Positions 3,858 through 19,201 of a stretch of DNA of 64,000 nucleotides are shown here, piece after piece. Below the pieces are notes generated by a model that saw only the letters and a list, made by a program, of their open reading frames with translations, searched no databases and had not been told where the DNA came from. Position numbers and translations under genes: made by a program. The stretch comes from Roseibium sp. (GTDB lineage Bacteria; Pseudomonadota; Alphaproteobacteria; Rhizobiales; Stappiaceae), in assembly GCF_048260565.1 (NCBI RefSeq), contig NZ_JBLXGP010000001.1:141362-205361 (forward strand), in the 5' to 3' direction. Position 1 is the first letter of the stretch; the number at the start of each line of letters is the position of its first letter.

Positions 3858-5399
3858 CTAAACGTTGCTGTCCGGGAAGGATGCTTTTCGATTGGTCATG
3901 AAATCCTGCAGGGCCTCATCGATGGCCGGATCGAGCTCGGGACCGCCGTAAGCCGCCAGTTGTTCCTTCCAGATTCGGTTGGCCCGCTTGGCAGCATCCA
4001 GTTCGCCGTCCGCCAGCCATTGTTCGTAGGAATTGTTGTCGGCGATCGACGAGCGATAGAATGCGCTTTCGAAATTGCGCTGGGTATGCGCGGCTCCGAG
4101 GAAGTGACCGCCCGGTCCGACTTCCTGAAGCGCGTCCATGGCCATTGCTTCGTCGGAAAGATCGATTCCCCTGGCCAGGACATGCATCATGCCGAGCTGG
4201 TCGGCGTCCAGGATGAATTTTTCATAAGACGAGCACAGTCCGCCTTCGAGCCAGCCGGCCGCATGAAGGGCAAAGTTCACACCGGACTGAACGGTGGCGG
4301 TTATTGTTTGGGCCGATTCCTGGGCGGATTGGGCATCCGGCACCTTGGAGGCCGTGAAGGAGCCTCCGGAACGGAACGGAAGATTGAGCCTGCGGGCAAG
4401 TTTGGACGCGCCGTTCAAAAGCAGCGTGCCTTCCGGGCTGCCGAAGGTCGGCGCACCCGATTGCATGGAAATGGAACTGACGAAAGCGCCGAAGACGACC
4501 GGCGCACCCGGCCGCAGGAGCTGGGTCAGCGCGCATCCGGCCAAAGCCTCGGCCAGGACCTGCGCCAGGGTGCCGGCAACGGTGACCGGGCTCATTGCGC
4601 CGGCAAGGATGAACGGCGAGACGATGCAGGCCTGGTTGGCACGGGCATAGACCTTGAGCGCACCGAGCATGGTGGCGTCGAAGACCAGTGGCGAATTGGC
4701 GTTGATGAGCTGGATCATCACGCAGTTCTGATCGACGAATTCCTCGCCGAACACGATCTGCGCCATCTTCACCGAATCTTCCGCCCGTTCCGGCGCGGTC
4801 ACGGAGCCCATGAACGGTTTGTCGGAATATTTGATATGGGAATAGACCATGTCGAAATGGCGCTTGTTCACCGGCAGGTCCACCGGTTCGCAAACGGTAC
4901 CGCCGGAGTGGTGCATCCACGGCGACATGTAGGCCAGCTTCACGAAATTGCGGAAATCCTCGATCGTGCCGTAGCGCCGGCCATTGTCGAGGTCCGTCAC
5001 GAAGGGCGGGCCGTAAACCGGGGCGAACACAAGGTTGTTGCCGCCGATTTCCACGCTACGGGCCGGATTGCGGGCGTGTTGGGTGAACTGGGCGGGCGCC
5101 GTCTTGACGAGTTCCTGAAGCATGCCCTTCGGAAAACGGACCCGCTCCCCGTCGACCTCGGCGCCGGCTGCCTTCCAGATGTCCAGAACCTCCGGATCCT
5201 CGCGGAACTCCAGGCCGATTTCCGCCAGAATCCGGTCGGTGCTGGCTTCGATCTTCTCAGCGCCTTCATCGCTCAGGACATCGTAGAACGGGATGTTCCG
5301 TGAGATGTAGGGAGCGCCGACACCGCCTGATCCGGATATGCGGCGTTCTCGGCGGGCCGATCTCCCGCGGCGTCCCGCGGATACTGCGGCATCGGACAT
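3858..5399 (-). CDS. Trimethylamine methyltransferase family protein (non-pyrrolysine MttB/MtgB-like, probably glycine betaine:corrinoid methyltransferase)
   Basis: 513 aa with MttB-family motifs (GGTVCEPVD, SDKPFMG, NANSPL, SMQSGAPTFG, HAAGWLEGGL). No in-frame TAG. GGAG RBS. Confidence 0.9.
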   Translation of the reverse strand: MSDAAVSAGRRGRSARRERRISGSGGVGAPYISRNIPFYDVLSDEGAEKIEASTDRILAEIGLEFREDPEVLDIWKAAGAEVDGERVRFPKGMLQELVKTAPAQFTQHARNPARSVEIGGNNLVFAPVYGPPFVTDLDNGRRYGTIEDFRNFVKLAYMSPWMHHSGGTVCEPVDLPVNKRHFDMVYSHIKYSDKPFMGSVTAPERAEDSVKMAQIVFGEEFVDQNCVMIQLINANSPLVFDATMLGALKVYARANQACIVSPFILAGAMSPVTVAGTLAQVLAEALAGCALTQLLRPGAPVVFGAFVSSISMQSGAPTFGSPEGTLLLNGASKLARRLNLPFRSGGSFTASKVPDAQSAQESAQTITATVQSGVNFALHAAGWLEGGLCSSYEKFILDADQLGMMHVLARGIDLSDEAMAMDALQEVGPGGHFLGAAHTQRNFESAFYRSSIADNNSYEQWLADGELDAAKRANRIWKEQLAAYGGPELDPAIDEALQDFMTNRKASFPDSNV

Positions 5400-5527
5400 G
5401 ATTGAGCCTCCATCTGGCTACTCGAATGAGGGACTGCGAGTGTGCGCGAGACTGGTGTAACACCTCTGTCCGTATACGTCTCAGCCTTTCCTAAAAACGT
5501 CACCAGGCCAACGCGCTTTGGGAACGA

Positions 5528-5554
5528 TGGCGTCTTGACGACAGAGCATGTCGG
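5528..5554 (+). promoter_or_regulatory. Candidate GlxA/GbdR-type tandem operator upstream of the DMG-dehydrogenase-like gene
   Basis: TGGCGT at 5528 and TGTCGG at 5549, exactly 21 bp apart; weaker match than the other copies. Confidence 0.3.
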
Positions 5555-5731
5555 CTTGCCGCATCTGGTCTTTGGAAACCCGACCTAGGCTGCCTGCAAA
5601 ACGGGAATGGCCGGCAGGCGATGCCGCCCGGATTTGCGGTGGCCGGAGGGTGAAACCTAGCGCTCCTGTTACTGGGCTTAAAGGCAGTGTGCAGGGCGCT
5701 TCGGTGCCGGTCTGTTGAAGAGGAATGAGAC

Positions 5732-17572: not shown

Positions 17573-17829
17573 CGGGATTTCGGAGGGTTTGGATAGGACT
17601 GCTTTCTGGGGCAGTTCGGCCGCTTCGCACCCTTTTCATGCCCTCCCCACCAGCGGCGAGGTGGATTGGATCACCCGGACTTCGCCGTGTGATGACGCCG
17701 TATCTGCGGCGGGAGCCTTGCCACTCTCTCCGCGTCATTGCCCGGCGAAGTCCGGGCAATCCACTCGCATCAGTCGTGTGGTTAGGTGGTCGGATGGGGC
17801 AATATCTGTCCCGCCCCGTATTTTCCGCC

Positions 17830-18477
17830 TCAGCCCACGGTCCGCTCCCCCAAAAACGTCTCCAGCATCCCATACCCCGTCTTCTGCATTTCAAACGCCA
17901 GACCCAGACGCTCGGCGGCCTTGCGGGCGGCGGCTTCGAGCTTCGGGTCGTCGGTCTGGGCGAGGTAAAGCACGCGGGTGTAATGGGCGAAGTAGAGGTC
18001 GCGCAGGTGGGGGTGCCAGTTCAGGCCGAGCGGAGCCATGACCATGGTCTCGAAATGCCGGGCCAGGAAGTCGGTCAGGTAGAAGGTACCGAGCTGGTCT
18101 TCCTCCAGGGCGTCGAAGGCATCCAGGCCGGTAAAGAAGGCGTAGCAATGGGCGCCGCCGATGCGCTTCGCGCCGGTTTCTTCCAAAACCTTGTCCAGCA
18201 GTCCGCCGGTGCCGCAATCGGCATAGGCGACCAGGATCTCGTCATAGAGGTCGCGTTTTTGAAGGATCGCCGAGCGCACGGCGTCGGGGATCTTCTGCGG
18301 CGTGTTGTGCAGCTGGGCGGGCAGGCAGGTCAGGTCGATATGGTCGAACCCGTTCAGCTCCCGGATCGCCTTGATCTCGCGGGCAAGGGCGCCGCAGGCG
18401 ATCACCAGGACGCGCCCGATCTTCCGGAGCGGTGCCGGCTCCGGCTCGAAAGGAAAAAGCGGTGCGCTGGAGGCCAT
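17830..18477 (-). CDS. DUF1638 domain protein
   Basis: ATG at 18477 with GGAGG RBS; VIACGALAREI, LPAQLHNTP, YADCGTGG, HCYAFF, FYLTDFL. Confidence 0.85.
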   Translation of the reverse strand: MASSAPLFPFEPEPAPLRKIGRVLVIACGALAREIKAIRELNGFDHIDLTCLPAQLHNTPQKIPDAVRSAILQKRDLYDEILVAYADCGTGGLLDKVLEETGAKRIGGAHCYAFFTGLDAFDALEEDQLGTFYLTDFLARHFETMVMAPLGLNWHPHLRDLYFAHYTRVLYLAQTDDPKLEAAARKAAERLGLAFEMQKTGYGMLETFLGERTVG

Positions 18478-18499
18478 TCCGTCGCCTCCCTGTCTGCTG

Positions 18500-19201
18500 T
18501 CAGGCTTTTCCGGCAAGCATGTTGTGCCTGCGGGCGATCAGGTCCTTGGCCATTTCCACCGCCACGGCCGCATCCCGGCAATAGCCGTCGGCGCCGATGG
18601 CATCCGCGAATTCCTCGTTAAGCGGCGCGCCGCCCACAAGGACGATGTAATCATCGCGCAGGCCCTTTTCGGTCATGGTGTCGATGACGACCTTCATGTA
18701 GGGCATGGTGGTGGTGAGCAGCGCCGACATGCCGACGATGTCCGGCTGATGTTCCTCGATGGCCGCGAGATAGTTTTCGACCGGGTTGTTGATGCCGAGG
18801 TCGATCACCTCGAAGCCGGCGCCTTCCATCATCATGGAGACGAGGTTCTTGCCGATGTCGTGGATGTCGCCCTTGACCGTGCCGATGACCATCTTGCCGA
18901 CCTTGGGGGCGCCGGTTTCGGCCAGCAGCGGCCGCAGGATGCCCATTCCGGCCTTCATGGCATTGGCCGACAGGAGCACTTCCGGCACGAACAGGATGCC
19001 GTCCCTGAAGTCGACGCCGACGATGCGCATGCCTTCGACAAGCGCCTTGGTCAGGATGTCATAGGGCGCCCAGCCGCGCTCCAGCAGGATGTTGACCGCG
19101 TCCTGGATTTCCTCCTTGAGGCCGTCGTAAAGGTCGTCATGCATCTGCTCGACGAGTTCGTCGTCGGAAAGGCTGGCGAGGTCGATATCATCGTCGGACA
19201 T
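18500..19201 (-). CDS. Corrinoid (cobalamin-binding) protein, stand-alone cap + B12-binding domains of MetH
   Basis: ATG at 19201 with GGAG RBS; FVPEVL cap motif, TVKGDIHDIGKNLV (DxHxxG), SALLTTT, VGGAP. Confidence 0.95.
   Translation of the reverse strand: MSDDDIDLASLSDDELVEQMHDDLYDGLKEEIQDAVNILLERGWAPYDILTKALVEGMRIVGVDFRDGILFVPEVLLSANAMKAGMGILRPLLAETGAPKVGKMVIGTVKGDIHDIGKNLVSMMMEGAGFEVIDLGINNPVENYLAAIEEHQPDIVGMSALLTTTMPYMKVVIDTMTEKGLRDDYIVLVGGAPLNEEFADAIGADGYCRDAAVAVEMAKDLIARRHNMLAGKA

What the first reader, a model, noticed from the sequence alone, without database searches (positions are those of the whole stretch)
5340..19201. Shared Arg-rich terminal tails on the four corrinoid-partner enzymes, facing a highly acidic corrinoid N-terminus: candidate docking code for a split enzyme
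Seen directly: MtgB N-terminus AGRRGRSARRERR (5340-5399); Bmt C-terminus SGRRRGRRRD (9552-9581); RACo C-terminus GGRRRRRRG (14148-14174); MeTr C-terminus GGRRRGGREGRRR (16194-16244). These four are the enzymes expected to bind the corrinoid protein in turn, and its first 34 residues contain 14 Asp/Glu (MSDDDIDLASLSDDELVEQMHDDLYDGLKEEIQD). Fhs, the DMG dehydrogenase, DUF1638 and the housekeeping proteins in the window lack such tails. Inference: flexible basic tails replace the covalent linkers of fused MetH by tethering each enzyme to the acidic cap, or drive a multi-enzyme assembly or condensate. I know of no description of this. Caveat: high GC favours Gly/Arg, and the RACo tail contains a 9-bp tandem repeat.
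Basis: partly seen in the sequence, partly recalled or inferred. Interest (0 to 1): 0.8.

Follow-up and report, generated by a model that had tools for sequence, protein, structure and literature searches.

The report
Arginine tails on B12-carrier client enzymes
In a known split vitamin-B12 methyl-transfer system, each of the four enzymes that must visit the small, very acidic B12-carrier protein has a conserved arginine cluster at one end, which looks like an undescribed docking tag, although no binding has been shown.

Summary
In this Roseibium genome, only 10 of about 4,600 proteins have 7 or more Arg in their last 20 residues. Three of those are RACo/RamA, the methyl-THF methyltransferase (MtgD) and the homocysteine methyltransferase (MtgE/Bmt). 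Both MttB paralogs carry the matching cluster at the N-terminus.

- **Conservation:** the tails are kept in 96-97% of RACo and MeTr orthologs read across Alphaproteobacteria and in two Gammaproteobacteria loci. Genomes of 33-43% GC still use Arg, not Lys.
- **Selection level:** Arg codons vary freely while the peptide stays the same, so selection acts on the protein.
- **Co-variation:** tails occur wherever the corrinoid protein (MtgC) has its acidic N-terminal cap. Both features are absent from homologous systems with a non-acidic corrinoid protein, including a 68% GC one and a natural CoP-MeTr fusion.
- **Known context:** the gene set is the known MtgBCDE/RamA split methionine synthase and glycine-betaine methyltransferase. 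I found no paper that mentions the tails.

Electrostatic docking onto the MtgC cap is the best-supported reading (about 55%), but it is inferred and not shown. No encapsulin or microcompartment shell genes were found, and GC bias does not explain the tails. A condensate is not excluded.

The parts
3858..5399 (-). MttB-family (MtgB-like, non-pyrrolysine) methyltransferase, 513 aa
   Evidence: Pfam PF06253, E 5.5e-239. 4YYC is the closest solved structure, with E 7.5e-232.
5340..5375 (-). N-terminal Arg cluster of MttB (GRRGRSARRERR, residues 9-20). It lies before the structured core, which starts near residue 30.
   Evidence: Translation. D. hafniense MtgB (2QNE) aligns only from residue 32. 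The motif RRxGGRxARR is kept in MttB paralogs down to 41% identity, and in one paralog at 23% identity.
8556..9584 (+). Homocysteine S-methyltransferase (Bmt/MtgE), 342 aa counted from the ATG at 8556
   Evidence: Pfam PF02574. Orthologs at 52-63% identity lie next to MtgC in Rhodobacterales and Rhizobiales.
9552..9581 (+). C-terminal Arg tail of Bmt/MtgE (SGRRRGRRRD)
   Evidence: Translation. Top-ranked in the genome. Across 46 distinct ortholog tails the median is 6 Arg in the last 15 residues.
14145..16172 (-). RACo/RamA-like reductive activator of corrinoid proteins, 675 aa
   Evidence: Pfam Fer2, RACo_linker, Raco_middle and RACo_C_ter.
14148..14174 (-). C-terminal Arg tail of RACo (GGRRRRRRG)
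   Evidence: Translation. 96% of 79 orthologs have 5 or more Arg in the last 20 residues, against 0 of 9 distant RACo proteins. Codons vary while the peptide is constant.
16191..17147 (-). Methyl-tetrahydrofolate:corrinoid methyltransferase (MeTr/MtgD), 318 aa counted from the ATG at 17147
   Evidence: Pfam PF00809. Orthologs start at MTRTV.
16194..16244 (-). C-terminal Arg tail of MeTr (GGRRRGGREGRRRTVSV), after an Ala/Pro/Gly-rich linker
   Evidence: Translation. 97% of 73 orthologs have 5 or more Arg in the last 20 residues, against 0 of 5 distant MeTr proteins. Linker composition.
18500..19201 (-). Corrinoid protein (MtgC), 233 aa, pI 4.3, net charge -22
   Evidence: Pfam PF02607 and PF02310. 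Charges. 78-87% identical across Alphaproteobacteria.
19100..19201 (-). Acidic N-terminal cap segment of MtgC (14 D/E in 34 residues). It comprises a loose tip of about 7 residues, a short turn, and cap helix 1.
   Evidence: Translation. AlphaFold2: residues 1-7 coil, helix 13-25 at pLDDT of about 97. L8, L11, L16, Q19 and D23-G27 are invariant in 75 sequences. In 78 orthologs the N-terminal segment has a median of 8 acidic and 0 basic residues.
17830..18516 (-). DUF1638 protein, part of the system but without a tail. The likely start is the ATG at 18477.
   Evidence: Pfam PF07796. 0 of 9 orthologs have a tail. [quoted passage not shown]
17164..17484 (-). PF13769 ('Virulence_fact') small protein that co-occurs with the system and has no tail
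   Evidence: Pfam. Phylogenetic profile. AlphaFold2 pLDDT 90 with no PDB fold match.

Best explanation
The cluster is a Roseibium copy of the known MtgBCDE/RamA system. This system is a split B12-dependent methionine synthase that also demethylates glycine betaine.

Its hub is MtgC, a small B12-carrier protein. MtgC is very acidic (net charge -22), and its first 25 residues carry a net charge of -10. Those residues form a short loose tip and the first helix of the cap that covers the cobalamin.

Four client enzymes must take turns on MtgC:
- MttB/MtgB loads methyl groups.
- MeTr/MtgD exchanges methyl groups with folate.
- Bmt/MtgE methylates homocysteine.
- RACo/RamA repairs oxidised Co(II).

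Each client has a net-negative body. Each also carries, on a short low-complexity linker at one terminus, a cluster of about six arginines.

I propose that these clusters are short linear docking motifs. They would capture the acidic cap of MtgC by fly-casting, offset the like-charge repulsion between the acidic bodies, and raise the encounter rate. They might also hold the cap aside while the corrin enters the client's active site. Because all clients would use the same weak tag, they could exchange quickly on one carrier. In effect the tags would do the job of the covalent linkers in fused MetH.

**Shown:** the motifs, their conservation, their specificity to the four clients, selection at the protein level, and their clade-level co-variation with the acidic cap.

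**Inferred:** physical binding, the binding site on the cap, and any kinetic effect.
For: - **Rarity in the genome:** Bmt, RACo and MeTr are 3 of the 10 most Arg-rich C-termini among 4,608 ORFs.
- **Conservation:** tails are kept in the genus, in 9 other families of the order, across the class, in Rhizobiales, Rhodobacterales, Rhodospirillales, SAR116 and two Gammaproteobacteria loci, and in Ruegeria, where the genes are dispersed. In numbers, 96% of 79 RACo orthologs and 97% of 73 MeTr orthologs carry them, and all Bmt orthologs read do.
- **Not a GC effect:** genomes of 33-43% GC keep Arg, with a median of 0 Lys. A 68% GC homologous system has no tails.
- **Protein-level selection:** all six Arg codons interchange at the same positions within the genus.
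- **Specificity:** of 159 C-terminal Arg clusters among 1,813 ORFs, 124 are RACo, MeTr or Bmt, and the rest show no recurrent family. CoP, DUF1638, PF13769, Fhs and MetH have none.
- **Either terminus works:** the cluster is N-terminal in MttB paralogs and C-terminal in one MttB-like protein.
- **Co-variation with the acidic cap, both present:** every corrinoid protein read at 57% identity or more has the acidic N-terminus. One of them, at 64% identity, lies beside a RACo and a homocysteine methyltransferase that both carry tails.
- **Co-variation with the acidic cap, both absent:** this holds in the clade at about 50% identity (L083-L087, L173) and in a CoP-MeTr fusion.
- **Charge complementarity:** CoP net -22, client bodies -8 to -18, tails +4 to +6.
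- **Precedent:** in solved MttB-MttC and MtaB-MtaC complexes, the cap or N-terminal domain of the corrinoid protein is the main docking element (PMC9842639).
- **PF13769 is not the obligatory receptor:** tails persist in two genera that lack the PF13769 protein.
Against: - There is no binding, structural or genetic evidence for the contact. No complex prediction could be run here.
- Most of the acidic segment is a structured cap helix rather than a free tail, so the exact site is unknown.
- DUF1638, which is also required for B12 reactivation, has no tail.
- Within the clade, the number of acidic residues in MtgC does not correlate with the charge of the tails (Spearman rho 0.18, 0.30 and -0.05). 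Co-variation therefore rests on a few clade-level contrasts.
- The strong preference for Arg over Lys would also fit binding to phosphate-rich partners such as RNA, polyphosphate or anionic lipids.
Confidence: 0.55

Rival explanations
1. The Arg clusters bind another polyanion, such as RNA or the nucleoid, polyphosphate or the anionic inner membrane. They would co-localise the four enzymes into a metabolon or condensate, perhaps near the betaine transporter. The acidic MtgC would then be recruited only secondarily.
For: - Arg is strongly preferred over Lys even in AT-rich genomes. This is typical of guanidinium-phosphate contacts and of Arg-rich RNA-binding motifs.
- The other Gly/Arg-rich C-termini in this genome, such as C17:88300-90996 and C1:255334-255798, resemble the RGG-type tails of RNA-binding proteins. 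Those proteins were not identified here.
- The clients are probably oligomers and so would be multivalent. MttB is a hexamer in PMC9842639.
Against: - This reading does not explain why the tails appear and disappear together with the acidic cap of MtgC.
- MtgC, which must meet all four clients, has no basic tail and would be repelled by polyanions.
- Rfam finds no RNA family in or near the cluster.
- No scaffold gene co-occurs with the tails, and the only extra conserved gene (PF13769) is dispensable for keeping them.
Confidence: 0.2
2. The tails act within each enzyme or on its fate, not on a shared partner. They might be solubility or charge-balancing appendages for very acidic enzymes, auto-inhibitory plugs for the corrinoid-binding face, or stability or degradation signals.
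For: - All four client bodies are net negative, from -8 to -18.
- The cluster sits within 3 residues of the C-terminus in 67-98% of tails, as terminal signals often do.
Against: - Equally acidic neighbours have no tail: DMG dehydrogenase (net -36), Fhs and DUF1638.
- The same motif works at the N-terminus in MttB and at the C-terminus in the others, which is unusual for degrons.
- Homologous enzymes working with a non-acidic corrinoid protein lack the tails.
Confidence: 0.12
3. The tails are composition or DNA-level artefacts: high-GC drift towards Gly/Arg, a tandem DNA repeat, mis-called termini, or targeting peptides for Tat export or a protein compartment.
For: - The window is 61-65% GC in this stretch.
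- The RACo tail contains a 9-bp repeat in this genome.
Against: - The tails are kept at 33-43% GC and absent from a homologous system at 68% GC.
- Codons vary while the peptide is constant.
- C-termini do not depend on start-codon calls.
- The MttB N-terminal cluster aligns to chain residues 22 onward of the deposited 4YYC sequence.
- No hydrophobic Tat h-region follows the MttB arginines.
- No encapsulin or BMC shell genes were found in a 99.99% complete genome.
Confidence: 0.03

Closest known systems
MtgBCDE/RamA split methionine synthase and aerobic glycine-betaine methyltransferase (Ruegeria pomeroyi DSS-3, Mausz et al. 2025, PMC12478193; Phaeobacter inhibens, Price et al., bioRxiv 10.1101/192971)
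   Same: - The protein set is the same: stand-alone B12 carrier, MttB-family methyltransferase, pterin-binding methyltransferase, homocysteine S-methyltransferase, RamA-like activase and DUF1638.
- The corrinoid protein is 81-82% identical to those of two Ruegeria species.
- Ruegeria RACo and MeTr carry the same tails.
   Different: - Those papers do not mention arginine, tails or an acidic cap. They also do not mention the PF13769 protein.
- Here the genes are clustered with DMG dehydrogenase and Fhs.
- This genome also has a fused MetH.
Anaerobic corrinoid methyltransferase systems: MtgB/MtgC of Desulfitobacterium hafniense (2QNE), and MttB-MttC and MtaB-MtaC of Methanosarcina (PMC9842639)
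   Same: - The enzyme families and the shuttle logic are the same.
- The cap or N-terminal domain of the corrinoid protein is the docking element in the solved complexes.
   Different: - The N-terminal Arg cluster is missing. D. hafniense MtgB aligns only from residue 32 of the window protein.
- In those systems recognition relies on folded surfaces such as the dimerisation loop and the MtaC N-domain, not on terminal charged motifs.
Small acidic carrier or hub proteins recognised electrostatically by many clients (acyl carrier protein helix II; the acidic C-terminal tip of SSB). Comparison from general knowledge, not tested here.
   Same: One small acidic carrier visits many enzymes in turn, and recognition is charge-based, weak and exchangeable.
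   Different: In those systems the clients present folded basic patches or pockets. Here the clients present disordered poly-Arg termini, and the acidic element is a cap helix on a B12 domain.
Arg-rich linear motifs that recruit cargo into carboxysomes or pyrenoids (CsoS2, CcmM, EPYC1 binding Rubisco). Comparison from general knowledge, not tested here.
   Same: Short, repeated basic motifs in disordered regions bind acidic surface patches on a folded partner.
   Different: Those scaffolds are multivalent and drive phase separation inside a shell. Here each enzyme chain has a single terminal motif, and no shell genes were found.

Membership tests
MtgBCDE/RamA split methionine synthase / glycine-betaine methyltransferase | Stand-alone corrinoid protein with cap (PF02607) and B12-binding (PF02310) domains, belonging to the MtgC clade | tested here: met
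   Pfam. 78-87% identity to corrinoid proteins of Ruegeria, Mesorhizobium, Hoeflea and others.
MtgBCDE/RamA split methionine synthase / glycine-betaine methyltransferase | Non-pyrrolysine MttB-superfamily methyltransferase (PF06253) | tested here: met
   PF06253, E 5.5e-239. The ORF is intact with no in-frame stop.
MtgBCDE/RamA split methionine synthase / glycine-betaine methyltransferase | Separate pterin-binding methyltransferase (MtgD) and homocysteine S-methyltransferase (MtgE) | tested here: met
   PF00809 and PF02574.
MtgBCDE/RamA split methionine synthase / glycine-betaine methyltransferase | RamA-like activase (Fer2 plus ASKHA RACo domains) and a DUF1638 protein | tested here: met
   Pfam. 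Roles taken.
MtgBCDE/RamA split methionine synthase / glycine-betaine methyltransferase | [quoted passage not shown] | not testable with these tools
   This needs genetics or enzymology. Context is consistent, since DMG dehydrogenase and Fhs are adjacent.
Electrostatic carrier-client docking motif (the reading proposed here) | The motif is conserved, disordered, terminal and restricted to the clients of one carrier | tested here: met
   Disorder is inferred from the Ala/Gly/Pro/Glu-rich linker composition, not from a model.
Electrostatic carrier-client docking motif (the reading proposed here) | The complementary acidic element on the carrier co-varies with the motif | tested here: met
   Both features present. 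Both absent. There is no quantitative correlation within the clade.
Electrostatic carrier-client docking motif (the reading proposed here) | Direct physical binding of the tail to the carrier | not testable with these tools
   Only single-chain structure prediction was available.
Tat (twin-arginine) signal peptide, considered for the MttB N-terminus | An RR motif followed by a hydrophobic h-region and a cleavage site | tested here: not met
   The arginines are followed by ISGSGGVGAPYISRNIP and then the conserved cytoplasmic enzyme core.
Encapsulin or microcompartment cargo-targeting peptide | Shell protein genes in the genome | tested here: not met
   PF04454 and PF00936 are absent from the 99.99% complete genome, and the control genomes scored positive.
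Arg-rich or RGG RNA-binding motif | RNA binding, or association with RNA-handling domains | not tested
   No RNA-related domains are present in the four enzymes. Rfam finds no family in the cluster. Binding itself was not tested.

The most novel reading that the evidence does not exclude
The terminal poly-Arg cluster and the acidic MtgC cap form a portable address code that defines the interactome of one B12 carrier. Any enzyme given such a tail, at either terminus, would be recruited to MtgC. The relative strength of the tails would set how the carrier is shared between betaine demethylation, methionine synthesis and reductive repair. Tail binding might also help uncap the cobalamin. On this reading the code arose when a MetH-like machine was split into free subunits, and it would be transferable for engineering multi-enzyme B12 methyl-transfer cascades.
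Probability: 0.2. Interest if true: 0.8.

Novelty: new variant of a known kind. Interest (0 to 1): 0.6.

Why it matters
How one small corrinoid carrier finds several unrelated enzymes and switches between them is an open question for multi-component B12 methyltransferases. The solved archaeal complexes give different answers for each pair.

The MtgBCDE system is highly expressed across the global ocean (PMC12478193) and links osmolyte catabolism to methionine synthesis.

A shared, conserved and easily mutated tag on all four clients, with a matching acidic cap on the carrier, makes that question directly testable by tail deletions, charge swaps and peptide binding. If the reading is right, it gives a simple handle for assembling or rewiring B12-dependent methyl-transfer cascades.

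Tried and rejected
- **Quantitative co-evolution:** I correlated the net charge of the MtgC N-terminus with tail charge across 40-43 loci. There is no significant correlation (rho 0.18, 0.30, -0.05), because both features are nearly invariant within the clade.
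- **PF13769 protein as the tail receptor:** its profile matches the system, but two genera lack it and keep both the tails and the acidic cap. I rejected it as the obligatory receptor.
- **DUF1638 as the receptor:** it also occurs in tail-less systems (L080 and L082), so it is not specifically linked to the tails.
- **Compartment targeting:** no encapsulin or BMC shell genes were found.
- **Tat signal:** there is no h-region.
- **GC or DNA-repeat artefact:** rejected.
- **Divergent corrinoid protein P0254 (42% identity, non-acidic):** its context has no methyltransferases, so it is uninformative.
- **Taxonomy of the metagenomic corrinoid-protein representatives:** the sources give no names, so I could not confirm spread beyond Pseudomonadota.
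- **Fold search for the PF13769 model:** no significant PDB match.
- **Co-folding of tail and carrier:** not possible, because only single natural chains can be submitted and both prediction jobs are used.

Full report
**What is in the window**

Pfam identifies the following genes:

| Gene | Coordinates (strand) | Pfam evidence |
|---|---|---|
| MttB-family methyltransferase | 3858-5399 (-) | MTTB |
| Dimethylglycine-dehydrogenase-type enzyme | 5732-8293 (+) | DAO, FAO_M, GCV_T, GCV_T_C |
| Homocysteine S-methyltransferase (Bmt/MtgE) | 8556-9584 (+) | S-methyl_trans |
| RACo/RamA-like activase | 14145-16172 (-) | Fer2 plus RACo domains |
| Pterin-binding methyltransferase (MeTr/MtgD) | 16191-17147 (-) | Pterin_bind |
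| Small PF13769 protein | 17164-17484 (-) | Virulence_fact |
| DUF1638 protein | 17830-18516 (-) | DUF1638 |
| Cap plus B12-binding corrinoid protein (MtgC) | 18500-19201 (-) | B12-binding_2, B12-binding |
| Formate-THF ligase (Fhs) | 20005-21675 (-) | FTHFS |

The corrinoid protein's nearest relatives are named Roseibium/Labrenzia, family Stappiaceae.

This gene set is the MtgBCDE/RamA system. It was described genetically in Ruegeria pomeroyi (PMC12478193) and as a split MetH in Phaeobacter inhibens (10.1101/192971).

To test chance, I laid out the whole genome and made a crude codon-usage-based gene call of 4,608 ORFs.
- Only two proteins reach 6 Arg in an 8-residue window within their last 20 residues. 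They are Bmt and RACo.
- Only 10 proteins have 7 or more Arg in the last 20 residues. Bmt (8), RACo (7) and MeTr (7) are three of them.
- Both MttB paralogs of the genome have an Arg-rich N-terminus.
- The fused MetH, a second homocysteine-methyltransferase paralog, Fhs, DMG dehydrogenase, DUF1638 and the PF13769 protein have no such cluster.

**The tails are conserved, and selection acts on the protein**

- Within the genus, RACo ends ...GG(E)RRRRRRRG and MeTr ends ...GGRRRGGRAARR.
- Nine other families of the order keep the tails at 55-66% RACo identity.
- A class-wide sample of 301 genomes has 61 with a RACo ortholog, and those I read carry the tails.
- Eighty loci found through the corrinoid protein show the same tails on RACo and MeTr. 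They also show them on every Bmt/MtgE ortholog (52-63% identity). These loci cover Rhizobiales, Rhodobacterales, Rhodospirillales, SAR116 and two Gammaproteobacteria.
- In Ruegeria the genes are dispersed, and the tails are still present.
- In numbers, 96% of 79 RACo orthologs and 97% of 73 MeTr orthologs have 5 or more Arg in the last 20 residues. This compares with 0 of 9 and 0 of 5 distant homologs, and 0% for CoP, DUF1638, PF13769, Fhs and the MttB C-terminus.
- Over 108, 101 and 46 distinct tails (RACo, MeTr, Bmt), the median is 6 Arg and 0 Lys in the last 15 residues. The cluster ends within 3 residues of the C-terminus in 67-98% of cases.
- Genomes of 33-43% GC keep Arg, using AGA and CGN codons.
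- Within the genus, all six Arg codons interchange at the same positions while the peptide is constant.

**The tails are specific to the carrier's clients**

An unbiased scan of 1,813 crude ORFs in about 120 related loci found 159 with a C-terminal Arg cluster. Of these, 124 are RACo, MeTr or Bmt. The remainder have no recurrent family and are largely spurious ORFs.

MttB-family paralogs carry the N-terminal motif RRxGGRxARR down to 41% identity, and one at 23% identity also does. One MttB-like protein in a gammaproteobacterial MAG carries its cluster at the C-terminus instead.

The Arg cluster precedes the structured core. The D. hafniense MtgB sequence (2QNE) aligns only from residue 32. The sequence of the closest solved structure, 4YYC, includes the cluster.

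**The tails co-vary with the acidic cap**

In 78 MtgC orthologs, the segment before the QMHDDLYDG motif has a median of 19 residues, with 8 acidic and 0 basic. L8, L11, L16, Q19 and D23-G27 are invariant.

AlphaFold2 (pLDDT 87) places residues 13-25 in the first cap helix at pLDDT of about 97. Only about 7 residues are loose. The acidic N-terminus is therefore mainly an acidic face of the cap, not a free tail.

A scan of 1.84 billion representative proteins gave corrinoid proteins across a range of identities, and I read sixteen of them.
- Those at 57% identity or more have the acidic N-terminus.
- Those at about 50% identity lack it.

Cases where both features are present:
- A divergent system whose corrinoid protein is 64% identical has tails on its RACo and on its homocysteine methyltransferase.

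Cases where both features are absent:
- Five alphaproteobacterial systems with corrinoid proteins at 49-54% identity.
- A 68% GC locus carrying betA/betB-like genes, MttB, CoP and MeTr.
- A natural CoP-MeTr fusion.

Charges fit the picture. MtgC has net charge -22, with -10 in its first 25 residues. Client bodies are -8 to -18, and the tails are +4 to +6.

**Mechanism**

The best-supported reading is electrostatic docking of the clients' Arg clusters onto the acidic cap of MtgC. This would act as a tether in place of MetH's covalent linkers.

There is precedent for the cap as the docking element. In the solved MttB-MttC and MtaB-MtaC complexes, the cap or N-terminal domain of the corrinoid protein provides the main contacts (PMC9842639).

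Binding itself is inferred and not shown. Several points weigh against the reading:
- There is no quantitative charge correlation within the clade.
- DUF1638 has no tail.
- The Arg-over-Lys bias would equally suit phosphate-rich partners.

**Rivals**

- Binding to RNA, polyphosphate or membrane, or forming a condensate, remains possible at about 20%. It does not explain the co-variation with the cap, and Rfam finds nothing in the cluster.
- Intramolecular or stability roles get about 12%. Equally acidic neighbouring enzymes lack tails.
- Artefact, Tat signal or compartment targeting are essentially excluded.
- The PF13769 protein shares the system's phylogenetic profile (59 versus 61 of 301 genomes, 57 in common). 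However, two genera lack it and keep the tails, so it is not the obligatory receptor.

**Novelty**

The system itself is known. Neither of the two key papers, nor the MtgB and MttB structural papers, nor full-text searches mention arginine tails or an acidic cap.

Earlier AI notes in this scan made the same observation in at least eight other genomes. They agree with this report but are not independent evidence.

I rate the finding as a new, undescribed feature of a known system. It is well established as a sequence pattern, and its function is untested.

Noticed in passing
window 17164-17484 (-): The 106-aa PF13769 ('Virulence_fact') protein has almost the same phylogenetic profile as the tail-bearing RACo: 59 versus 61 of 301 class genomes, with 57 shared. 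It sits beside MeTr even in Ruegeria, where the system is dispersed. AlphaFold2 gives a confident alpha/beta model (pLDDT 90) with no significant PDB fold match. The Mausz et al. 2025 paper does not mention it. It is probably an uncharacterised component of the system.
   Followed up: partly
P0184 (metagenomic protein, 525 aa): This is a natural fusion of a corrinoid protein (about 53% identical to MtgC, non-acidic N-terminus) with a pterin-binding methyltransferase. It ends ...AQKAAEAQAQGAT, with no Arg tail.
   Followed up: partly
L150 (Gammaproteobacteria MAG), MttB-like gene: A distant MttB-like protein (23% identity) next to an MtgC-type corrinoid protein carries its Arg cluster at the C-terminus (...HASRRRRTARSVAL) instead of the N-terminus.
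   Followed up: no
L173 (metagenome contig, 68% GC): This locus has betA/betB-like genes, an MttB-family gene, a non-acidic corrinoid protein and a MeTr, with no Arg clusters at all. It is a homologous betaine-type system that works without the tag.
   Followed up: partly
G000 C3:335432-339238 and C2:756907-758478: The genome also encodes a fused MetH of about 1,230-1,270 aa (1,269-aa open frame; no tails, non-acidic cap region). It has a second MttB paralog (58% identity) with its own Arg-rich N-terminus.
   Followed up: partly
window 16173-16190: MeTr and RACo lie in the same reading frame and are separated only by the MeTr stop codon and 18 bases. PF13769 and MeTr are 16 bases apart. This suggests a tightly coupled PF13769-MeTr-RACo unit.
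   Followed up: no
L175 (metagenome contig): A 57%-identical acidic-cap corrinoid protein is followed, with overlapping stop and start codons, by a truncated gene that may be MttB-like. That gene has no N-terminal Arg cluster, and its C-terminus is cut off by the end of the contig. It could be an exception or another C-terminal-tail case.
   Followed up: no
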